Source of the DNA: Candidatus Atabeyarchaeum deiterrae
GTDB lineage: Archaea > Asgardarchaeota > Atabeyarchaeia > Atabeyarchaeales > Atabeyarchaeaceae
DNA: 64,000 nucleotides
Direction of reading: 5' to 3'
Assembly (NCBI GenBank): GCA_037310415.1
Contig: CP147780.1
Coordinates: 480,001-544,000, forward strand
Below, piece after piece: positions 10,422 to 42,265 of this stretch (within the stretch, counting starts at the first letter, position 1; the number at the start of each line of letters is the position of its first letter). The notes below the pieces were generated by a model that was not told where the DNA came from, did not search any database, and saw nothing but the letters and a program-made list of their open reading frames with translations. The position numbers and the translations under genes were made by a program.

Positions 10422-10569
10422 GGGCCCCCTAGGTCGAACGATTCAAAGAATCCACAACAAGAATCACGGCAAACCTCGCTGGGGAAGCAAAGTTGTCGCT
10501 CGACTAATTAAACCTAGCTCCGAATCCAAATAAATATGTCTTAACCTCTACCTTCCGCAAGAAAAGAGA

Positions 10570-10579
10570 TAAGTTAATT
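10570..10579. repeat. Candidate att core, left copy (TAAGTTAATT)
   Basis: Identical 10-mer at 18418-18427; both copies sit where host genes give way to orphan genes. Confidence 0.55.
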
Positions 10580-10703
10580 AAACGCTACTTTAAAGTTCCA
10601 TTCTCAAAACTTATTTGTCCTCTGGCTCATTCTCACTCCATAGAGGGACTTGTTATTGTAACAAATGTCTATCGACTATTCATTTGACGATTAGTGACAG
10701 TCT

Positions 10704-11117
10704 TCACCCCAAGAATGTAGTCCACACTCCCAAGGCAATCAAAGGAATTATCCAACCACCTAACCACTTATAGAATCCCCAAACCATACTTTTCCAGAAA
10801 CTCTCACTCCTATTGTGAGATAAGAGATTATACTTCCAAACAGAATACACAAATAGCAATAAACCAATTCCAGCCGTGCCCAAATAAAATATTAGCACAA
10901 GTTTTGAACCAAATGATTCAACCATCATTGGAAGCGTCATGAAAAGACTGCCAAGTAATGGTAAAACAATTCCAGTTGAAACATAGTATATAGTACCTGC
11001 AAAACTGTAAAGGCTACTAAGCAATGCTAAAGCTCCCACAATACTGGAAAGCCACCAGAATCTAGTTTCTTCCTGAAGCTTCTTCTTTTTCGTCTTCCTC
11101 TTTTTAGACGCATTCAT
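10704..11117 (-). CDS. Element-encoded multi-pass membrane protein (basic N-terminus, ~4 TM)
   Basis: KKRKTKKKK followed by hydrophobic helices. Confidence 0.75.
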   Translation of the reverse strand: MNASKKRKTKKKKLQEETRFWWLSSIVGALALLSSLYSFAGTIYYVSTGIVLPLLGSLFMTLPMMVESFGSKLVLIFYLGTAGIGLLLFVYSVWKYNLLSHNRSESFWKSMVWGFYKWLGGWIIPLIALGVWTTFLG

Positions 11118-11202
11118 TTTCCCTAATCCCCAATTACAGTTAGAGGAGGCTAGAGATATACCTTCCTAGCTATGGTACATTCCCCTCTCCCGCCTTTCGG
11201 CA

Positions 11203-11421
11203 TCAATGCTTTAGTGTCTCTTCGGCACATTTTCGTGCCTCGTCAGCTTTAATTTTCTTAATTTTCTGGAAAATCTGATTTCCCTTAAGATTAAGCGCCC
11301 TAATTTCAGAGATCGGTTTTCCTCTCTCCGTCGCCTTTAATGCTTCATTCTCAACCGACACATATTCATTATTCAACCTTTCAATTCTTTTACATTCATC
11401 TGACTTCTTATGTTGCGTCAT
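11203..11421 (-). CDS. Element-encoded small basic helical protein
   Basis: 72-aa ORF with a strong GGAGGAGGTG SD-like sequence upstream. Confidence 0.7.
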   Translation of the reverse strand: MTQHKKSDECKRIERLNNEYVSVENEALKATERGKPISEIRALNLKGNQIFQKIKKIKADEARKCAEETLKH

Positions 11422-11748
11422 ACTGTACCACCTCCTCCACCTCTATCAACCAAGGCTAGTATTGCTTGAAGATCATTTACGACTTTTTTCTTTTCACATT
11501 CAGATATAGAGGTTATCAGTCAGCTTATCGAAAGGGCTGATAACCGTGTACCGCCCTTCGACATCCTGACATCTAAGGTGTAATATCTCATGAGATAATT
11601 AATCCGAATAATCCGAAAATACCTAACCCCCTACCCGTCCCCTAAGTAATAACTAGCATAATAATAGCACCATAATGTACATGCCACATCATAACCTGAC
11701 AGCTTGGGGTGTAATTCCCTAGCGGGAATTTTCCGATTTATCCCCTAT

Positions 11749-11904
11749 TTAATTGAAAAATACCTTTGCCGTCCGACAGCCACATTCACACTTCAAGAAA
11801 ACCGTGTCCATCATCGAGCCCTTTTTGACATTGGCAATATTCATCCACCGCCCGCATCGATGGCATTCTACCAATAGAGTTGAATAGTCTTCCAAATCCG
11901 ACAT
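11749..11904 (-). CDS. Element-encoded Zn-ribbon microprotein (51 aa)
   Basis: Manual translation MSDLEDYSTLLVECHRCGRWMNIANVKKGSMMDTVFLKCECGCRTAKVFFN; CxxC...CxC; GGAGG upstream. Confidence 0.7.
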   Translation of the reverse strand: MSDLEDYSTLLVECHRCGRWMNIANVKKGSMMDTVFLKCECGCRTAKVFFN

Positions 11905-11949
11905 TATCCCCGCCTCCCCCTTTCCTTACCATATTCATCTCACCAATGA

Positions 11950-12390
11950 TCATTGAAGTGGAATTACCTTATCAGCAAATCTCTTACCCATCCGTATTAT
12001 GACTTTATTAACCAACAAAAGATAAGTTTTCAAAAACTCCGTATAATACCTTCTATTCGACTTATCATTCGCAAGATTATCTTGAAGTTCATTCCAAGAG
12101 CCTGTCAATGTCTTCATATCAGCCTTATCCTCGAGATACATGCAAGACTGTACCACATCAGTAAGCAACATTTCATCCAACTCAAGAAAAACATTGCCAT
12201 CATAGTTTACCTTACCATCCAAAACACTGTTTACAAATTCTATTTTATCTAGAACAGTATGAATTGCTTTGCACCAGCCGTCATAAATCCACAACTCATT
12301 CTTAATCATTTTAATGACATGATCAATTCTCTTTTTTAGAACCTTGTCGATATCCATGCTTCTCGCTTCCCAGTCATACCCAATGCACAT
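11950..12390 (-). CDS. Element-encoded hypothetical helical protein
   Basis: 146-aa ORF in the operon-like run. Confidence 0.7.
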   Translation of the reverse strand: MCIGYDWEARSMDIDKVLKKRIDHVIKMIKNELWIYDGWCKAIHTVLDKIEFVNSVLDGKVNYDGNVFLELDEMLLTDVVQSCMYLEDKADMKTLTGSWNELQDNLANDKSNRRYYTEFLKTYLLLVNKVIIRMGKRFADKVIPLQ

Positions 12391-12413
12391 ACTCTATCAG
12401 TAATTCCGCTCCC

Positions 12414-13286
12414 TTAACCAAGATCAATATTGTGATCCAGTCTTAACCGTTTTACTACTTGTTTAGGTAATGCCCTGATAGCTACATCCCGATTCTTACC
12501 ACCCTTTGGAGGGATATAGACCTCACGATAAGCTGAGAATAACAATATCCCTTTTTGACCTTCATCCGCTTTAACGTATTTGTAATGCCAATCTTTTACA
12601 CCGACTTTTACACACGTCCCGAAACGATCCAGACTTTTCTTGAAAATAGGAGTTCTCTTAGAAGGCTCTTCTTCAGCTTGAGCATCGACCTTCTCTAGTT
12701 GTGCGCTCTGTGATGCTCTATCTTCTGAGATTAGCTTCTTCAATTCTGATCCCGACAACTTACAAGGCTCTTTTTCCTTCTCCCCCTTAGATTTTACATA
12801 ACACAGATAAAACGGTTTACCGCCTTTATGAGCTTCGACATTACAGTAACCACCATTAGCCCTAGCCCACTGATCCGCCAATGCCTTATTAGAAAATTCA
12901 CTATATGGCTTATCGACACGATCCAAACTAGGATCAGAGTGTTTACCTTCTTTCATCATCCGCCAGAGATTGAATGTCCTGACTTCGTCCCTAGGTACAC
13001 CCTTTAAATCCTTTCTTTCGTCACCTTCTTCAGTTAGCCAGTACCGCCAAGTTTTATACTTCTCAGCATATTTAGGATCATTTTTACACCCCTCATCAAA
13101 AATCGATTGTTTCCAAATTATATACTTTCTTGGTCTGATGTGTCCCCTGACTCCTTTGATAATCTTATTCGCTTTTATAAAATCCTTCTTTAGCTTCATG
13201 AACTCTCTGAGAGTCCTAGGATTCGGTACGCAGGCATCACTAACCTGCGGTATATCTAAACGTTTCAACTTTTTCACTTTCGACAT
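12414..13286 (-). CDS. Element-encoded basic 290-aa protein (candidate nucleic-acid-binding/replication protein)
   Basis: Very Lys/Arg-rich, GGGAGGT SD, downstream of a repeat-rich non-coding region; no family recognised. Confidence 0.7.
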   Translation of the reverse strand: MSKVKKLKRLDIPQVSDACVPNPRTLREFMKLKKDFIKANKIIKGVRGHIRPRKYIIWKQSIFDEGCKNDPKYAEKYKTWRYWLTEEGDERKDLKGVPRDEVRTFNLWRMMKEGKHSDPSLDRVDKPYSEFSNKALADQWARANGGYCNVEAHKGGKPFYLCYVKSKGEKEKEPCKLSGSELKKLISEDRASQSAQLEKVDAQAEEEPSKRTPIFKKSLDRFGTCVKVGVKDWHYKYVKADEGQKGILLFSAYREVYIPPKGGKNRDVAIRALPKQVVKRLRLDHNIDLG

Positions 13287-13576
13287 ATGCTTACTACCTC
13301 CCGATCCCCCTTCTCCTATTCTACCCTATCCCCCTTGATGTAAGGGATTGATGTAAGGGTTCAATCGCTAGGGGATTGATGTGTCCCTTAACCCCAACAA
13401 TCCTCTTGAGGATAATCGAGAAGAAAAGAGAAAGATTATCCTAAAGAAAGAATAGAAAGAAAGGGTTTTGAAAGAGAAAAGAAATGATATTTCCTTTCTT
13501 TTTCTTTTACTTGTTTTTGAATAATCACCTTGTTTTAGTTTCTCTCATACCTCCCTCAAAGGAAAGAAAAAGAAAA

Positions 13577-13776
13577 CGTATCTTCTCCCTTTCGTAAAAA
13601 GATACGAAGTCGGCTAGTTCAAAGGGAGGAAAACTAACCGACTATTACAAGCCTTTCCTTAGCCTGCGCCTTGTGGATTGAACTTGTAACCGTAAAGGCA
13701 CGATCTCACTTGGAGCAAACTAGAGATCGTACCTATGCTTGGATGGATCACCACCGACTAGTGTGGTGAACTAGTC
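13577..13776 (-). ncRNA. Candidate structured RNA (or single-strand origin) inside the element
   Basis: Five consecutive stem-loops; non-Watson-Crick pairs in three stems are G-U only on the minus strand; loop complementarities; followed by a U-rich tract. Confidence 0.55.
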
Positions 13777-13787
13777 AGGGATGACTT

Positions 13788-14228
13788 TTACTGTCTAGCG
13801 TACTGACCAATTAGATATACAGCGCAAGAATAGATAGCCATCACGACAGCGAGCACAATAACGATCATGCTGAAAATCAATCCATCCATCGAATTGAATA
13901 TAGCCATCGAGATGCCTCCAGTTAAAATACCGTACATAAAGTATCCCCCCGCGATAGCTAGACCTGTAACAGCTCCAGCGCTAGCGCCAGCCTTTGCAGA
14001 GTTTTGTCCCGCAAGCCCCGCAATGATAGCGCCAAATACTATACCTCCTATGCAGAGAGCTAGCAGTATCCAATCGTACATAAAGACCGAGATAAACCCA
14101 GTCAATCCAAAGACCACAAAGTAGATTCCCAAAGGTACGATAGTTATGAACGATGTCCCTAAGCTTGCTAGTGCTCCTGCAATATCTTGAGAACTAACCA
14201 TAACCTGATCACTCTCCCCAAACATCAT
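13788..14228 (-). CDS. Element-encoded Gly/Ala-rich multi-pass membrane protein (candidate virion/envelope protein)
   Basis: 146 aa, almost entirely hydrophobic helices. Confidence 0.75.
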   Translation of the reverse strand: MMFGESDQVMVSSQDIAGALASLGTSFITIVPLGIYFVVFGLTGFISVFMYDWILLALCIGGIVFGAIIAGLAGQNSAKAGASAGAVTGLAIAGGYFMYGILTGGISMAIFNSMDGLIFSMIVIVLAVVMAIYSCAVYLIGQYARQ

Positions 14229-14266
14229 AGTGTTTGAGACTCACATTTTTTGATGACTTCATAAAT

Positions 14267-14404
14267 CTAGTCAGAATGAAACCATTTCAGGATTTTAGAT
14301 CGCTTCTCTCTCCAATCTTTTCCAGAGATTTCACGATCCAGATATTGTTTATTCAAAATACGTAAAGCCTTAATCCGATCCCTTCGTGTTTTGTACCCGC
14401 CCAC
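14267..14404 (-). CDS. Element-encoded SHOCT-like microprotein (45 aa)
   Basis: Manual translation MGGYKTRRDRIKALRILNKQYLDREISGKDWREKRSKILKWFHSD; GTG start with GGTGAT SD; L..L......IS..(E/D)...K...IL pattern. Confidence 0.5.
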   Translation of the reverse strand: MGGYKTRRDRIKALRILNKQYLDREISGKDWREKRSKILKWFHSD

Positions 14405-14510
14405 GTTTATCACCTTTGAAGTATTTCAATAACCGAAAGCCGACACACTTAGGATCAGAGCCATCACAGACATTGACCTTATACACTTTATCGGATTTTG
14501 ACTTTGACAT
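14370..14510 (-). CDS. Element-encoded basic microprotein (46 aa)
   Basis: Manual translation MSKSKSDKVYKVNVCDGSDPKCVGFRLLKYFKGDKRGRVQNTKGSD; starts 6 nt after the preceding stop. Confidence 0.45.
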   Translation of the reverse strand: MSKSKSDKVYKVNVCDGSDPKCVGFRLLKYFKGDKRGRVQNTKGSD

Positions 14511-14516
14511 TCTAGA

Positions 14517-14939
14517 TCATCCCCCAGTTTTCCATAGAAGTGACCAGTTAGCACTATTCCCAAATATGAGAGCTAGGACAACTAGAATGATCATGAAGGC
14601 AAACTCTCCGAGCGCCCCCCACTGAGCATTTAGTAAACTTAAACCGATTCCGACAAATCCAAATAAGATCAAGCTAGCCGTAACCACCATCACGGCTATT
14701 GTACCGCCCAGTATAGCGGTTTGTAGTTTACTATCAAAGAGCCACAGACCGACTAGTACCACAAATATGATAATGCTAACACTAGCTACTATCGCCCATA
14801 TGTTCATACAGAGATAGTTAAGGTAAATTCCGATCACTCCAGTGATCAGAGCAATCGCTAGGGGAGGCATTGTAATCAACATGATGATCGATCCGATAAC
14901 CCGCCTAAGTATATCTTGCCAATCTATATTCTCAAACAT
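14517..14939 (-). CDS. Element-encoded multi-pass membrane protein
   Basis: 140 aa, ~4 TM helices, AGGTGA SD. Confidence 0.75.
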   Translation of the reverse strand: MFENIDWQDILRRVIGSIIMLITMPPLAIALITGVIGIYLNYLCMNIWAIVASVSIIIFVVLVGLWLFDSKLQTAILGGTIAVMVVTASLILFGFVGIGLSLLNAQWGALGEFAFMIILVVLALIFGNSANWSLLWKTGG

Positions 14940-14953
14940 GATCTATATCACCT

Positions 14954-15307
14954 TCACAAATGCCAGACCTGACCTAGTAATCCCCCAAACCAAGTCGCTA
15001 AATCGTCCCCAAATCTAAGCCAGTCGTCCGCCATCAAAATGACACCGATCACCAAAAACACCAAGACGAAAATGTTGAATTTTCCATTTCGAATGAACCA
15101 AAAGACCATCACAAAAGTCATGATAAACCCCGTCATGCCATGATGCCAATGAAACGTCCCGACCTGAATATTGAAAAGAGCCAGAAGACCATTCCAAACA
15201 CCTACTAGTAATTCGACTCCCCCGATCATGAACGTGATCAACGTAGTGATCGCTAGTGCTGTCCCAAGATAGACTAACATCTTATTTTTGAAATTCCACT
15301 TTATCAT
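14954..15307 (-). CDS. Element-encoded ~3-TM protein with HWHH and DD motifs
   Basis: FHWHHGMTG...GVILMADD; GGAGG SD. Confidence 0.75.
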   Translation of the reverse strand: MIKWNFKNKMLVYLGTALAITTLITFMIGGVELLVGVWNGLLALFNIQVGTFHWHHGMTGFIMTFVMVFWFIRNGKFNIFVLVFLVIGVILMADDWLRFGDDLATWFGGLLGQVWHL

Positions 15308-15346
15308 AGCAATCCTCCCCCGATGCCCTGACCTGACAAAAAGAGT

Positions 15347-15514
15347 TTACTTATCGCAAGGCTCTACAATTAAAAACTTAGTCTTAGGATCGACTTTGAT
15401 CTTCATACATTGATGATCGTGTATGTTAGCTTCTTCCGCTATTTTGGTCGGTATATACAATGCCTTGCCGTATTTGCTTATTGGGTACAACTTACCTTTA
15501 CCTTCGTTCGTCAA
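15347..15514 (-). CDS. AbrB/MazE/SpoVT-like DNA-binding microprotein (55 aa)
   Basis: Manual translation MTNEGKGKLYPISKYGKALYIPTKIAEEANIHDHQCMKIKVDPKTKFLIVEPCDK; TTG start with GAGGTGA SD; swapped-hairpin pattern (LYIP..IA...I.....V....LIVEP). Confidence 0.7.
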   Translation of the reverse strand: MTNEGKGKLYPISKYGKALYIPTKIAEEANIHDHQCMKIKVDPKTKFLIVEPCDK

Positions 15515-15551
15515 AATAGATCACCTCTCTTCTAACCAGTACTACAGTAAA

Positions 15552-15603
15552 GAGTTAATATACTAGAAAATTAACTCCGCCCGCCTACTTATATACTAGA
15601 AAA
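15552..15603 (-). promoter_or_regulatory. Candidate promoter/operator of the element's membrane-protein operon
   Basis: 13-bp direct repeat ATATACTAGAAAA (15558-15570, 15591-15603) plus inverted repeat GAGTTAAT/ATTAACTC (15552-15559, 15570-15577). Confidence 0.55.
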
Positions 15604-15635
15604 CGTTCCATTCCAAAAAATAAGAAATAGAGGTT

Positions 15636-16052
15636 TTACCGTTCCCCTTTCAGTATCGCCTCTTTCCTTGCTCTGCTTTTTGACTTGCTTCTCTTTCCCT
15701 TCTTCGTTTTCGCCTCAAGCTTCAGTATCCGTTCAAGCAAACCAACATCACTTTGAGCAGCATGAAGTGTGCTCTTACTACTCCTATAATTTTCCCAGAT
15801 CACACCGATCATAAATGGAACGAAGATTTGACCAAATTTGAACAACGCATTAACATATGCTATAGGTATGCCAGATATTGTGATATTTGCAAATGGATAT
15901 TCCATAGCCCTAAACGCCACAGAATCAAATGTTGAAGAGAACACAACAAGAAAAACAACTGCAAAAACAGTAAAAATCACATTTCCTAGAAGAAAAATCC
16001 TATTCCTATGTCTCCACTTTTCAAACAGTTCCTCAATACTTTTCTTCTCCAT
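15636..16052 (-). CDS. Element-encoded 2-TM protein with basic C-terminal tail
   Basis: Two hydrophobic segments; KTKKGKRSKSKSRARK tail. Confidence 0.7.
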   Translation of the reverse strand: MEKKSIEELFEKWRHRNRIFLLGNVIFTVFAVVFLVVFSSTFDSVAFRAMEYPFANITISGIPIAYVNALFKFGQIFVPFMIGVIWENYRSSKSTLHAAQSDVGLLERILKLEAKTKKGKRSKSKSRARKEAILKGER

Positions 16053-16098
16053 TTACTTCTATTCCCCTTTGACTCCCCCCATTCTTGCTTCACCGTCT

Positions 16099-16929
16099 TC
16101 ATGCTTTTGGTGTTACGATAATGGCGAGTTCAGGCTCCGTAGTCAATACAGGAGGTACAAATTTCAGCTTGAATTTTGGTTTCTCATCTTTCATTAGTTT
16201 AATCGAAGAGCTTTTCTCATCATAATAGTATAACAGGATTTTTCTGCTCCTCATCAAGAAACTGACGATATGAGAGATTGCGGATTCATTATGCGCACGA
16301 TCTTGCTCTTGGAATCCAGCTTGCTTACCAAGTTTGACTCGGATATCAGTTTCAATCTCAGCTTTAATCACTGGATAAACATCCTTGGAAAACTCTTTCA
16401 CGTTCTTGCCCTCTGTGAGGATTACTGGAAGATCAAACTCAGACGATGTCACTGCTAATTTCTTCATCTTGGATAACAAGTAGAGCACTTCGTCACGTTC
16501 AAGCTTCCATTTCTCGTTTTCGTCATAAGCCTGTTCCCCGTACAAACATGTTAGCACAAAGTTGACCGTACCCAATCTATCCGACATAAATAAGTAATAA
16601 ACTGTCCATGCTATGAAAGCAAGCAACCCGACAAGGAAGGGATCGAAGTAACTTCGCAAAAACGCAATTGCGGCAAACATGCCTACTAAGACGGTAACTG
16701 AACCAACCCTTCTCTGCACGTATTCACTCTTCCAGTCTTTTAGTGATGCATAATACGCTCTTTTCTTATCTTCATCTGCAAACCAAAAGAATGTTTTTTC
16801 ACGAAACCAAAATTCTTCCAAATGTTGATTCATTTTCTTTGGATAGTATGAGAAGAACATGCGCCCGCCCACATACCACAGTAGGCTTAATAGGATTTCT
16901 ATCCTGACAAACACAATGAAGGTTATCAC
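16099..16929 (-). CDS. Element-encoded membrane protein with soluble C-terminal domain
   Basis: N-terminal TM helices and a ~150-aa soluble tail; no Walker A motif. Confidence 0.7.
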   Translation of the reverse strand: MITFIVFVRIEILLSLLWYVGGRMFFSYYPKKMNQHLEEFWFREKTFFWFADEDKKRAYYASLKDWKSEYVQRRVGSVTVLVGMFAAIAFLRSYFDPFLVGLLAFIAWTVYYLFMSDRLGTVNFVLTCLYGEQAYDENEKWKLERDEVLYLLSKMKKLAVTSSEFDLPVILTEGKNVKEFSKDVYPVIKAEIETDIRVKLGKQAGFQEQDRAHNESAISHIVSFLMRSRKILLYYYDEKSSSIKLMKDEKPKFKLKFVPPVLTTEPELAIIVTPKA

Positions 16930-17058
16930 GCTAATTGCTACTATGAAGAAATCGACTATGAATAACTTCAGATTACCTGCGCCACCTATATCTTCTAATC
17001 ACAGAATGATAGAGCAAATGCATTCTTAAATCTTCCATTACGCAAGCGCTAACTTTGG

Positions 17059-18345
17059 CTAGTGGGTTTTCTCGGCTCTCTTCTTAACCTTATCTAGCGT
17101 TTCCTTTTCGATCCCCTGAGCCGATTTATAGTACTCCTCACTTTCCTTCTCTTCTTGCTTTTCTAGCTCCTCAGCTTTTTCGTACGGCGCCTCTCTCCCT
17201 AGTTCCTTCGATAGTGTGTTGACATGCATTTGTAATCCGATTACTGCGCTCAACATCTCTTTTCTCGTTTTCTCGTTTTCTTCTCTTAACTTGGTGATAA
17301 TGTCTTTTAGATCGCCTACTTCTTTTCCCAGATGGTTACCGTTCAGGTTTATGCTAATGTATATCTCCCGCTTTGCGTACTCTTCCCTGACAATATCTGC
17401 TTGCTCACGCTGATAGACCTCAGCTAGTTCCCCGATACTATGCCCTAACAAAAAGTCAACCATTCCAGTCGGCATCGCATGAGATGCCATTACCGATCCA
17501 AATGACTCCCGAAGAGCATGAGGATTTACTCCCTCAACTTTAACATCTTTAGGAATCAACCCCGCCCTAATTCCTATATCTCTCAAGTTTTTCTGTACTG
17601 ACTGCGTTTCGATTCTCTCTTTACTCGACAGCTTGTCTTTAAGGAATAACGGATCACTTGATCCTAGTGTTATGCCCTTACTCTGAAGATCAGTCAGATA
17701 GTTGTTTATTGCATCAATCGCATTTCGCCCGATAAACGTATAGAAATCTGTCCCGCTTTTCTCTCGGTATAGATCAATCTTTAGCGGACTCTCCCCCGCA
17801 TTCAATCCTTTTTCAACCTGACCATAGTTGATACTGCAACAAGTACTAACATCCATCCCACCTTGAAACAGAGTTAGGATTATTGCCTTATCTCTTAGAT
17901 TGAGAGTAAAGTCAACTAGCCTTTTCACATCGCTTGTAGTTAAAAGAGCACGCTTATGAGTGACCTTAGGCTTTGGTAATTTACTATGCCCTTTCAACCT
18001 GACCATTAGATCAAAAGTACCATAGAAAGACCTTATAGCTCCAGTCCACTGACTAGCTTGCTTGGGAGTATATCCCTTAGTTCCATCCTTCCGTACAGCA
18101 TCTTTCAGCATCCAGTTATGAAACCCGATCAATCTCTGCTTAAGTATATTCTCTCTCTGCCTGACATCCTTCTTTGAATCTTCGATAGCCTCATCGATTA
18201 GCTCTGTCGGATTCTTGCCCGCATACTCGATAAACCGTAATAGAGCACTAACATAAGCTTTGAAGGTATTAGCCTTCGTTATCTCACTTAGCCATTTCCT
18301 AGACTCTGGATATTTGTCTAAACCCTTAAAATCAGATTGGCTCAT
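17059..18345 (-). CDS. Tyrosine recombinase/integrase with C-terminal coiled coil
   Basis: N-terminal core-binding-like domain, RDKAIILTL box, REK, HALR, LLGH, VY; GMD in place of the usual GxR. Confidence 0.92.
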   Translation of the reverse strand: MSQSDFKGLDKYPESRKWLSEITKANTFKAYVSALLRFIEYAGKNPTELIDEAIEDSKKDVRQRENILKQRLIGFHNWMLKDAVRKDGTKGYTPKQASQWTGAIRSFYGTFDLMVRLKGHSKLPKPKVTHKRALLTTSDVKRLVDFTLNLRDKAIILTLFQGGMDVSTCCSINYGQVEKGLNAGESPLKIDLYREKSGTDFYTFIGRNAIDAINNYLTDLQSKGITLGSSDPLFLKDKLSSKERIETQSVQKNLRDIGIRAGLIPKDVKVEGVNPHALRESFGSVMASHAMPTGMVDFLLGHSIGELAEVYQREQADIVREEYAKREIYISINLNGNHLGKEVGDLKDIITKLREENEKTRKEMLSAVIGLQMHVNTLSKELGREAPYEKAEELEKQEEKESEEYYKSAQGIEKETLDKVKKRAEKTH

Positions 18346-18417
18346 ACTACCATATCGCCCCTTTCACTATCTGATAGAGTAATAAGGCAATATAGTTATT
18401 TAACCATATCGTATTGG

Positions 18418-18427
18418 TAAGTTAATT
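18418..18427. repeat. Candidate att core, right copy (TAAGTTAATT)
   Basis: Matches 10570-10579; ~70 bp upstream of the integrase start. Confidence 0.55.
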
Positions 18428-40960: not shown

Positions 40961-41626
40961 TTATTGCTTTTCTTTCTCTTTCTTGGACTTGGCCGGAGGC
41001 TCGCTTGCATCAAGTTCTCTCTTTAGTTGTTCAAGATCTTTCTCTATTTCTTCCCGTTCTGTACTCCTGCTGGCGGATGGAACTTTCGGTAACTGACCAG
41101 ACTCTTCCATCGCGACCTCGGCTTCTAGTTTCTCAAGCTCACCGTCAACGCCAGCTTCATCCTCATATGCTCCGAGACCAGAACTCAGTATCTCAGATGT
41201 CTGTTCCACACTGCGCATCAGTGACTCATTCTTAGCAATCTGCTCAATTGATTTTTCCACATCGACCAATTTCTGTGCTTGTACGAGTTCTCTCGCTGTG
41301 AGATCGAGCGCTTTAGACATCTCAACATCGTCAGAAGCGCTTTCAATGGCTTGAATCGAGTCCTCAAGACTGGCCCGCATGCGATCATATCTATTCATTA
41401 ACATCTGGTACCGCTGCCACCTGGCCAAATAGAACTTTGCAGCAGCCTTGTTCCGGTGTCTAATGCTGTCTTTGCTCTTCTCATAGTACTCCATTGCCTG
41501 TCTCTCAAAGCTGCGGCTCCTAAATGTCAATTTGTTGATACTCGATCTTACTTGTGCTATGCTCTCATCTTTGCTCTTCTTCTTCTTCCCGAAGATTCTC
41601 GCAATGAGGTCGCTCAAACCATCCAC
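40961..41626 (-). CDS. ESCRT-III subunit, Vps20/32/60 (Snf7) class
   Basis: Amphipathic N-terminus LIARIFGKKKK, NKAAAK..L, LE.SIQAIESA, acidic ELEKLE and LPKVP tail. Confidence 0.88.
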   Translation of the reverse strand: MDGLSDLIARIFGKKKKSKDESIAQVRSSINKLTFRSRSFERQAMEYYEKSKDSIRHRNKAAAKFYLARWQRYQMLMNRYDRMRASLEDSIQAIESASDDVEMSKALDLTARELVQAQKLVDVEKSIEQIAKNESLMRSVEQTSEILSSGLGAYEDEAGVDGELEKLEAEVAMEESGQLPKVPSASRSTEREEIEKDLEQLKRELDASEPPAKSKKEKEKQ

Positions 41627-41653
41627 CCGCTTCTACTCATTTTTCCATGGACA

Positions 41654-42265
41654 TCATTGTACCTTTGACTCTTTCAATTTCTTAATCTCTTTCTCAAGCT
41701 CAGACTCTTTCCCACTGGGGACAGGGAGAGAAGTCGTTGCCTCCACTTCTGCATCAATCTGTTCCATGGCTTGTTTCACATCTTCGGATGTTACCGTCGT
41801 CGAAGCGATCGCTCTATCCACGCTACTCTCCGTTACTTCCTGTGCCAGTTCAACATGCTGAAGTTCTTTGTCGATATCATTCACAGCCTCAGCGATGTCT
41901 GGAACATTCACCGCAGTCCTTAGATCCTTGAGCATACCCCTGACTTGACCTAGGATCTCCGCAACGTCCTTCGCCATCTGCGACTGGCGCATCCTGAAAA
42001 CCATACCTTCGATTCTAAGCCTGTACATGTCGACTCCCAAGTACCATTTCTGATAGCGCAAGTATTGCTCGATGTATAGTTTGGATGCAGCTTCATTTCC
42101 TTCTTTTCTATATTGCAAGGCCTTCTCCCTATTGCGCCTCGCTTCAGTCTCAAGTTGTCTACGCTGGAATTCTAGCTTCTTGCAGAATATGTCCATATTG
42201 ATTATCAGTTTCTGGAAGTCCGATCCTTTGAGCCACTGGGCAAATCGTTTCAACATCGATGGCAA
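41654..42265 (-). CDS. ESCRT-III subunit, Vps2/24/46 class
   Basis: Amphipathic N-terminus, GNEAASKLY.EQYLR, RIEGM..RM, LPVP and a MIM-like ELEKEIKKLKE tail. Confidence 0.88.
   Translation of the reverse strand: MPSMLKRFAQWLKGSDFQKLIINMDIFCKKLEFQRRQLETEARRNREKALQYRKEGNEAASKLYIEQYLRYQKWYLGVDMYRLRIEGMVFRMRQSQMAKDVAEILGQVRGMLKDLRTAVNVPDIAEAVNDIDKELQHVELAQEVTESSVDRAIASTTVTSEDVKQAMEQIDAEVEATTSLPVPSGKESELEKEIKKLKESKVQ

What the first reader, a model, noticed from the sequence alone, without database searches (positions are those of the whole stretch)
10570..18427. Compact integrated element built mostly from small membrane proteins, with no recognisable capsid, ATPase or Rep: candidate new type of Asgard virus/satellite
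Seen: ~7.85 kb bounded by TAAGTTAATT repeats; about 14 co-oriented minus-strand genes; six predicted TM proteins (16099, 15636, 14954, 14517, 13788, 10704); an AbrB-like regulator; Zn-ribbon and SHOCT-like microproteins; one basic 290-aa protein; two structured non-coding regions. Established: pleolipoviruses, inoviruses and spindle-shaped archaeal viruses use hydrophobic virion proteins, but normally also encode a large spike and/or a P-loop ATPase, and neither is visible here. Inference: a minimal enveloped or vesicle-borne element, or a satellite, which may rely on host membrane-remodelling machinery (the host has ESCRT-III) for egress.
Basis: partly seen in the sequence, partly recalled or inferred. 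Interest (0 to 1): 0.9.

Follow-up and report, generated by a model that had tools for sequence, protein, structure and literature searches.

The report
Published cryptic integrated element of Atabeyarchaeia
The stretch is a real 7,848-bp mobile element inserted by its own integrase into an Asgard (Atabeyarchaeia-2) chromosome, but it was already published in 2024 as the unclassified element iMGE-xvi, and nothing found here shows that it is a virus or a satellite.

Summary
A low-GC block (0.40 against 0.47) at 10570-18427 is bounded by a 10-bp direct repeat. It carries an intact tyrosine integrase and 13 co-oriented ORFs, six of them small membrane proteins. It lies between a beta-CASP RNase gene and a PAC2 gene. 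The sister genome has these two genes adjacent. One wetland run holds a contig that skips exactly 7,848 bp at the repeat, so some cells lack the element.

The genome length (2,756,679 bp) identifies Atabeyarchaeia-2. The element is the "7848 bp integrated element (iMGE-xvi)" of Valentin-Alvarado et al. 2024, described there as circular and unclassified, with the same att motif.

The cargo is all ORFans. There were no Pfam, PHROG, NCBIfam or PADLOC hits. The three proteins searched matched only themselves among billions of proteins. AlphaFold models were unusable. No open frame has a P-loop or HUH motif. No host CRISPR spacer matches, and coverage shows no copy-number excess.

It fits the known class of "cryptic integrated elements". 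The virus, vesicle or satellite reading is neither refuted nor supported. The AbrB-like and SHOCT-like labels are not supported. One five-hairpin non-coding block is statistically strong.

The parts
10570..10579 (.). Left att core (attL copy of TAAGTTAATT). With base 10569 it equals the reverse complement of the published AATTAACTTAT.
   Evidence: joint at 10569->18418; PMC11529989
18418..18427 (.). Right att core (attR copy of TAAGTTAATT), 73 bp upstream of the integrase start.
17059..18345 (-). Tyrosine integrase, 428 aa, intact, with a C-terminal charged tail that is poorly conserved among homologues.
   Evidence: PF00589 1.1e-15; phrog_1 and phrog_216 integrase; 243 homologues, the best 65% and most 40-50% identical, from Bathyarchaeia and Methanomethyliales; HxxR, LGH and Tyr conserved
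16099..16860 (-). 253-aa ORFan (276 aa from the GTG at 16929) with two N-terminal hydrophobic helices and a C-terminal part of about 150 aa without hydrophobic segments.
   Evidence: only a self-hit among 1.84 billion representatives; AF2 pLDDT 40; weak APS-kinase-like stretch, E 0.014-0.054, without a P-loop
15636..16052 (-). 138-aa ORFan with two hydrophobic helices and a strongly basic C-terminal tail (pI 10.2).
   Evidence: no family
15347..15514 (-). 55-aa ORFan.
14954..15307 (-). 117-aa polytopic membrane ORFan.
14517..14939 (-). 140-aa polytopic membrane ORFan.
14370..14510 (-). 46-aa basic micro-ORF, called by gene finders on three contigs.
14267..14413 (-). 48-aa basic micro-ORF overlapping the previous one by 44 nt. 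'SHOCT-like' is not supported and its reality as a gene is uncertain.
13788..14228 (-). 146-aa glycine/alanine-rich polytopic membrane ORFan.
   Evidence: only a self-hit among 5.8 billion proteins; a 1-nt deletion variant in a C6 run on contig L015
13577..13790 (-). Block of five consecutive stem-loops, specific to the sense strand and followed by an oligo-T tract. Probably a structured 3' end or terminator of the first gene block, or an origin-like element.
   Evidence: z = -6.85 on the minus strand against -2.93 on the plus strand; sequence; no Rfam family
13287..13576 (.). Purine/pyrimidine-skewed spacer with a 13-bp unit repeated 1.9 times (13335-13359), upstream of the 290-aa gene. Candidate promoter or origin.
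12414..13286 (-). 290-aa basic ORFan (pI 9.7), the largest cargo protein.
   Evidence: only a self-hit among 5.8 billion proteins; Atlas pLDDT 0.47; AF2 pLDDT 50.8, best PDB Z 5.8, which is noise level
11950..12390 (-). 146-aa (135 aa from the second Met) ORFan without hydrophobic segments.
   Evidence: Atlas model pLDDT 0.60; no family
11749..11953 (-). Two overlapping alternative small ORFs: a 51-aa CxxC...CxC ORF (11749-11904) and the 55-aa ORF that gene callers chose (11786-11953).
11422..11748 (.). 327-bp non-coding spacer with short tandem repeats; only marginally structured.
11203..11421 (-). 72-aa basic ORFan.
10704..11117 (-). 137-aa membrane ORFan with a lysine-rich N-terminus; the last gene before the att core.

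Best explanation
The region is a 7,848-bp site-specific integrative mobile element of Atabeyarchaeia-2. It is identical to the published iMGE-xvi and belongs to the class called 'cryptic integrated elements'.

Shown:
- Its own tyrosine integrase gene sits next to one end, and a 10-bp AT-rich core is duplicated at both ends.
- The insertion lies in the spacer between the divergent beta-CASP RNase and PAC2 genes.
- The element is single-copy.
- It is missing from the sister species and from part of the natural population.
- Its depth never exceeds that of the chromosome.
- Its 13 other ORFs have no detectable relatives. Six of them are small polytopic membrane proteins.

Inferred:
- The integrase recombines the core on a circular form with the chromosomal site, and reverses this on excision.
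- Between such events the element is copied passively with the chromosome, because it has no recognisable replication, packaging or conjugation gene.
- The genes form two or three same-strand transcription units, separated by the hairpin/oligo-T block and by the 327-bp spacer.
- The membrane proteins act in the host membrane. They could serve exclusion, immunity or an unknown transfer route, rather than forming a demonstrable virion.

How the element moves between cells is unknown.
For: Identity:
- The genome is 2,756,679 bp in one contig. This is the Atabeyarchaeia-2 length in PMC11291895.
- The paper reports a 7,848-bp element with att AATTAACTTAT in Atabeya-2. Here the spacing is 18418-10570 = 7,848 and the core is the reverse complement.

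Integration:
- The integrase is intact.
- The site is empty in G001 and G002.
- In run X5 a contig skips exactly 7,848 bp, and the flank contigs end or start at the core.

Single copy, no paralogues of the cargo.

No hallmark genes:
- Pfam, PHROGs, NCBIfam and PADLOC are negative.
- No P-loop or HUH motif lies in any open frame.
- The 290-aa, 253-aa and 146-aa proteins hit only themselves.
- There is no DNA match in the phage or plasmid collections.

No copy excess: element depth is 88-102 against flanks of 132-143 in X5, and equal to the flanks in X2.

The class is known and common. Most thaumarchaeal integrated elements are cryptic, and many lack any replication candidate (PMC6563490).
Against: - The publication calls the element 'circular' in its Discussion, and its size matches the lower bound of the paper's 'putative ICEs (7.9-12 kbp)'. 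An extrachromosomal phase therefore exists or was inferred, and passive-only replication is an assumption.
- Logan contigs drop rare forms, so my failure to see attP says little.
- Six membrane proteins in 7.8 kb, one-strand gene order, a basic 290-aa protein and a strongly structured strand-specific block are also what a capsid-less enveloped virus or a rolling-circle replicon might look like.
- Novel replication or virion proteins cannot be excluded, because the AlphaFold models were too poor to search.
Confidence: 0.6

Rival explanations
1. It is a temperate, capsid-less, membrane-enveloped virus, or a vesicle-transmitted plasmid. It would be analogous to Plasmaviridae L2, Pleolipoviridae or plasmid-vesicle elements. 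The small membrane proteins would build the particle, the basic proteins would condense the DNA, and host membrane-remodelling machinery would release it.
For: - Six of 13 cargo ORFs are small polytopic membrane proteins, and two proteins are strongly basic.
- All genes are on one strand.
- The integrase is intact and the element is polymorphic in the population.
- The host encodes two Snf7/ESCRT-III genes.
- From my own knowledge: tiny archaeal viruses such as Clavaviridae APBV1 consist of ORFans with small hydrophobic structural proteins.
Against: - There is no large secreted or spike-like protein. The largest cargo proteins (290 and 253 aa) have no signal peptide or large predicted ectodomain (my reading).
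- There is no NTPase.
- No PHROG or Pfam family of any virion protein was hit.
- None of the 42 spacers in the host array matches.
- There is no depth excess and no attP contig.
- No relatives were found in IMG/VR.
Confidence: 0.2
2. It is a satellite that lacks its own particle and replication genes and is mobilised by a helper virus of Atabeyarchaeia-2, for example the 40-kb tailed Opia virus described in the same paper.
For: - It is small, has an integrase, and lacks replication and structural genes.
- A tailed virus of the same host exists (PMC11529989).
Against: - It shares no DNA with any phage record at blastn sensitivity.
- No homologue of any capsid-remodelling, packaging or primase gene typical of satellites was found.
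- Nothing links it to a helper.
- Membrane-protein cargo is not typical of known satellites (my own knowledge).
Confidence: 0.08
3. It is a decaying remnant, a deletion derivative of a larger element that lost its replication or structural module and is now fixed cargo.
For: - Coding density is only about 79%, with 501-bp and 327-bp gaps.
- Frameshift variants of two membrane genes occur in some contigs.
- The genome holds another, clearly degraded integrase of the same family at about 1,009,200-1,010,070.
Against: - The integrase is full-length with catalytic residues conserved.
- Both att cores are intact.
- An exact empty site coexists in the population.
- All ORFs are open in the reference and in three independent contigs.
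- No larger relative is known.
Confidence: 0.1

Closest known systems
iMGE-xvi of Atabeyarchaeum deiterrae group 2 (Valentin-Alvarado et al., Genome Res 2024, PMC11529989; bioRxiv 10.1101/2024.03.22.586370, Fig. S4)
   Same: It is the same object. The host genome length, the 7,848-bp size, the 11-bp att motif, the tyrosine integrase and the mostly hypothetical ORFs with transmembrane proteins all match, and the paper leaves it unclassified.
   Different: - The paper counts 12 ORFs; I count 14 possible ORFs, two of them doubtful.
- Its legend suggests a ClpP-class membrane protease, which no profile search here supports.
- It calls the element circular, which I could not see in Logan contigs.
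Cryptic integrated elements (CIE) of archaea (Krupovic et al. 2019, PMC6563490)
   Same: It carries an integrase, is bounded by att repeats, has no virus, conjugation or transposon hallmark, and offers no replication candidate, as in many CIEs. Its size is in the small range.
   Different: - The class is defined by exclusion and implies no homology.
- This element shares no gene other than the integrase family with any other element examined.
- It is unusually rich in membrane ORFans.
Yucahu-i, the 10,867-bp element of Atabeyarchaeia-1
   Same: It has the identical 11-bp att core (two copies 10,867 bp apart in G001), a tyrosine integrase and the same habitat.
   Different: - The integrase is unrelated (<25% identity according to the paper).
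- Yucahu-i has an SF3 helicase, a resolvase and a type IIG restriction-modification system. This element has none of these.
- The chromosomal locus differs.
- Atabeyarchaeia-2 keeps an unoccupied Yucahu-type site at 2,543,927.
Pleolipoviridae and Plasmaviridae (capsid-less enveloped viruses; features from my own knowledge and PMC13107129)
   Same: Small genome (7-17 kb), temperate members with integrases, and several small membrane proteins.
   Different: There is no spike-size protein, no NTPase, no HUH or Rep-Arvir (DUF7845) replication protein, and no sequence or profile similarity.

Membership tests
Integrase-mediated integrated mobile element | Tyrosine recombinase with the catalytic domain | tested here: met
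   PF00589 1.1e-15. HxxR, LGH and Tyr are conserved with 57 homologues.
Integrase-mediated integrated mobile element | Direct repeat (att core) at both ends | tested here: met
   A 10-bp exact repeat occurs only at 10570 and 18418 in the window.
Integrase-mediated integrated mobile element | Empty target site in relatives or in the population | tested here: met
   The flanks are adjacent in G001 and G002. A contig in run X5 skips exactly 7,848 bp.
Integrase-mediated integrated mobile element | Excised circular form (attP junction) | tested here: inconclusive
   No back-joint appeared in four runs of Logan contigs. The JGI and IMG/VR scans were negative, but the 290-aa gene was not found in either collection. 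The paper calls the element circular.
Cryptic integrated element (PMC6563490) | No virus, conjugation, casposon or transposase hallmark gene | tested here: met
   Pfam, PHROGs, NCBIfam and PADLOC are negative. No P-loop or HUH motif is present.
Pleolipoviridae | Conserved NTPase (VP8-like) and large spike protein (VP4-like) | tested here: not met
   No Walker A motif lies in any open frame. The largest cargo ORF is 290 aa without a hydrophobic segment. No PHROG or Pfam hit was found.
Pleolipoviridae | VP3-like internal membrane protein | tested here: inconclusive
   Small membrane proteins are present but have no profile match. Such proteins diverge beyond sequence recognition.
Fuselloviridae and other spindle-shaped viruses | SSV-type integrase whose gene is split by integration | tested here: not met
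   The integrase ORF is whole in the integrated state, and the att core lies 73 bp outside it.
Integrative conjugative element | Conjugation ATPases (VirB4/TraG-like) and a mating-pore module | tested here: not met
   There is no P-loop, no ORF above 428 aa and no family hit.
Rolling-circle replicons (HUH or Rep_trans/Rep-Arvir) | Initiator endonuclease | tested here: inconclusive
   No HUH motif lies in a real ORF, and there is no Pfam hit, including DUF7845. A fold-level test was impossible because the models had pLDDT 40-51.
AbrB/SpoVT/MazE (the 55-aa ORF) | Match to the swapped-hairpin domain profile | tested here: not met
   No Pfam hit at E<=1. A PF04014 six-frame scan finds 5 host loci and none in the element. 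hhalign against the host domains gives probability 0.8%. No PDB sequence hit.

The most novel reading that the evidence does not exclude
iMGE-xvi is the provirus of a new kind of capsid-less Asgard virus or vesicle-borne replicon. Its particle would be built only from the element's own small membrane proteins and basic DNA-binding proteins. It would be replicated by host enzymes from the hairpin/repeat region and released with host ESCRT machinery.
Probability: 0.15. Interest if true: 0.8.

Novelty: already known. Interest (0 to 1): 0.25.

Why it matters
Asgard archaea have few known mobile elements. A small, self-integrating 7.8-kb circle with a defined att site could become a vector backbone for this uncultured lineage. 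If it were shown to be a membrane-only virus, it would add a new virus type for the closest relatives of eukaryotes and a possible link to ESCRT-driven budding.

As it stands the element is a published, unclassified cryptic element. It also adds evidence that the cargo has no relatives in very large databases, and it corrects some tentative annotations.

Tried and rejected
**Relatives of the cargo**
- IMG/VR and JGI metagenome scans with the 290-aa and 276-aa proteins found nothing.
- Word-index searches of 5.8 billion proteins (290-aa, 146-aa) and a full HMMER search of 1.84 billion representatives (253-aa) returned only the query itself.
- tblastn of all ORFs against the own genome, against G001 integrase loci and against contigs of integrase relatives found only the integrase.

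**Neighbourhoods of integrase relatives**
- L016-L019 and L029-L031 are unrelated elements, some with Prim-Pol or primase genes.

**Structure**
- AF2 of the 290-aa protein (pLDDT 50.8) gave a best PDB Z of 5.8, which is noise.
- AF2 of the 253-aa protein (pLDDT 40) was not searched.
- ESM Atlas look-ups gave no usable family.

**RNA**
- Rfam found no family.
- No RNA holder was listed among the sequencing runs.

**CRISPR**
- The 42 spacers of the single host array have no match longer than 17 nt.
- A 34-nt, 88% match in G001 lies in a coding region, not in an array.

**Circular form**
- No attP joint was seen in Logan contigs.
- Exact-pattern scans of JGI and IMG/VR were negative, but those collections appear not to hold the element.

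**Annotations considered and rejected**
- The APS-kinase-like stretch is 39 residues without a P-loop.
- The TrbA, LegK1 and TruD hits have E of about 0.01, far below their cut-offs.
- The ClpP-class protease suggestion in the preprint legend has no profile support.

Full report
**1. Observation**

The decamer TAAGTTAATT occurs exactly twice in the 64-kb window, at 10570 and 18418. Only one shuffle in 100 gave two or more matches. Between the copies the GC content is 0.404, against 0.466 for the whole genome.

Essentially all plausible genes lie on the minus strand. The rightmost is a 428-aa tyrosine integrase (PF00589 1.1e-15; integrase PHROGs). Thirteen further ORFs follow.

No open frame on either strand contains a Walker A or an HUH motif. 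Coding density is about 79%, with two long gaps of 501 and 327 bp. The flanking genes are ordinary host genes: a beta-CASP RNase and a PAC2 proteasome-assembly chaperone. ARAGORN finds no tRNA gene in the window, so none sits at the insertion site.

**2. It is an insertion, and it is polymorphic**

In the two genomes of the sister genus the left and right flanks are adjacent, 269 bp apart. The aligned spacer carries a single degenerate copy of the core (TAAGCGATT) where the element sits here.

I laid Logan contigs of four wetland and sediment runs on the region. In run X5 one contig joins 10569 to 18418, skipping exactly 7,848 bp, with 10 bases shared by both sides. The flank contigs end and start precisely at the core. 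Flank depth is 132-143 and element depth 88-102. So part of that population lacks the element.

Two cautions apply. The junction side is only 20 nt. The run belongs to the same study as the probable source, so this re-observes the published evidence rather than replicating it independently. No attP back-joint was seen. Contigs drop rare forms, so that absence says little.

**3. Identity**

The window lies in a single 2,756,679-bp contig, and the closest relative G001 is 2,808,651 bp. These are exactly the lengths of the two complete Atabeyarchaeia genomes (PMC11291895).

Valentin-Alvarado et al. [quoted passage not shown] Here 18418-10570 = 7,848, and bases 10569-10579 are the reverse complement of that motif.

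The preprint's Fig. S4 legend lists 12 ORFs, mostly hypothetical, with transmembrane proteins. The finding is therefore a rediscovery of a published element. No later paper in the library mentions it.

**4. What the cargo is**

None of the 13 cargo ORFs reaches significance in Pfam, PHROGs, NCBIfam or PADLOC. Three proteins were searched at scale:
- The 290-aa and the 146-aa membrane protein matched only themselves among 5.8 billion proteins.
- The 253-aa protein matched only itself in a full HMMER pass over 1.84 billion representatives.

All five contigs that carry the 290-aa gene are the same element; the two with the right-hand flank (L012, L013) show the same insertion site. blastn at distant sensitivity finds nothing in the phage or plasmid collections.

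AlphaFold without an alignment gave pLDDT 50.8 for the 290-aa protein. The best PDB Z was 5.8, within the noise range the tool states. The 253-aa protein gave pLDDT 40. The 135-aa protein has an Atlas model of pLDDT 0.60 and no family.

- No Pfam hit.
- A genome-wide PF04014 scan finds five host loci and none in the element.
- hhalign against the host domains gives probability below 1%, although the IP-x-x-I motif aligns in register.

'SHOCT-like' has no support either.

**5. The integrase and its relatives**

The integrase has 243 homologues. The best is 65% identical, on a 2-kb contig. The rest are 40-50% identical and come mainly from Bathyarchaeia and Methanomethyliales, as the paper also says. 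Elements next to seven such relatives, including two in Atabeyarchaeia-1, share nothing else with this element. Some of them carry Prim-Pol or primase genes.

The Asp at the canonical first-Arg position (GMDVST) is conserved in at least 90% of 58 family members. HxxR, LGH and the Tyr are conserved as well. It is a family trait, not decay.

**6. Non-coding parts**

The minus strand of 13577-13790 folds into five consecutive stem-loops of about 10-15 bp. Its z-score is -6.85, against -2.93 for the plus strand. The block follows the 146-aa membrane gene directly and is followed by an oligo-T run. My reading is a structured 3' end or terminator of the first gene block. An origin-like function is possible. 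With a single sequence, no covariation test can be made. The second spacer is only marginal, at z = -1.95 and -0.31. Rfam has no match.

**7. Virus, plasmid or neither?**

Against an active virus or replicon in the samples I could examine:
- Depth is not above the flanks.
- No attP contig was seen.
- None of the 42 spacers in the host's only CRISPR array matches.
- No relatives exist in IMG/VR.
- There is no NTPase, no spike-size protein and no replication initiator.

In favour of keeping the idea open:
- The cargo is rich in membrane proteins.
- Gene order is on one strand.
- The 290-aa and several smaller cargo proteins are basic.
- The integrase and att sites are intact.
- The host has ESCRT-III genes.
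- Some tiny archaeal viruses consist only of ORFans (my own knowledge).

The established category that fits without further assumptions is the 'cryptic integrated element'. It makes up most integrated elements in Thaumarchaeota, often has no replication candidate, and was explicitly said to possibly hide new viruses or plasmids (PMC6563490).

My odds are:
- About 0.6 for a cryptic integrative element that is mostly copied with the chromosome.
- About 0.2 for an enveloped virus or vesicle-borne element.
- About 0.08 for a satellite.
- About 0.1 for a decaying remnant.

**8. Verdict**

The object is already in the literature as an unclassified element, so novelty is 'already known'. Interest is low to moderate.

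Noticed in passing
window 13577-13790 (minus strand): Five consecutive stem-loops, several with G-U pairs, give z = -6.85 on the sense strand against -2.93 on the other strand, and an oligo-T run follows. No Rfam family matches. No homologous sequence exists to test covariation.
   Followed up: partly
window 17059-18345; alignment of 58 homologues: The whole integrase family has Asp where tyrosine recombinases normally have the first catalytic Arg (GMDVST, at least 90% conserved), with an RDR/RDK motif just upstream. This is a family trait, not a defect of this copy.
   Followed up: partly
G000:C1:2543927 (outside the window); L037, L038: Atabeyarchaeia-2 keeps an unoccupied copy of the Yucahu-i target (…GGACACAATTAACTTATAATAG…) at the locus syntenic with the occupied site in Atabeyarchaeia-1 (2,590,417 and 2,601,284, 10,867 bp apart). 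Two unrelated integrases therefore use the same 11-bp core at different loci.
   Followed up: yes
G000:C1:~1009200-1010070 (outside the window): A frameshifted, stop-ridden remnant of an integrase of the same family (38-52% identity in three pieces) marks a past, decayed integration.
   Followed up: partly
L029:561-575: The closest integrase relative (65% identity, on a 2-kb JGI contig) has AATTACTTAT about 45 bp upstream of its start. This differs by one base from the att core here and may be the att of a related element.
   Followed up: no
window 13945, 13796, 14756: Frameshift variants occur in two membrane genes in some assemblies: a 1-nt deletion in a C6 run (contig L015), and minor-depth indels in run X5. 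They may be errors, strain variants or relaxed constraint.
   Followed up: partly
window 11749-11953: Two mutually exclusive small ORFs overlap in different frames: a 51-aa CxxC...CxC ORF, and the 55-aa ORF that gene callers chose (its start overlaps the upstream stop). Which one is real is open.
   Followed up: no
window 41072-42178: Two adjacent Snf7/ESCRT-III genes (PF03357, 2e-20 and 1.3e-11) lie on the minus strand.
   Followed up: no
whole window: ARAGORN reports no tRNA gene in the window, whereas another first-stage note claims three tRNAs with two introns each. Multi-intron tRNAs may escape ARAGORN.
   Followed up: no
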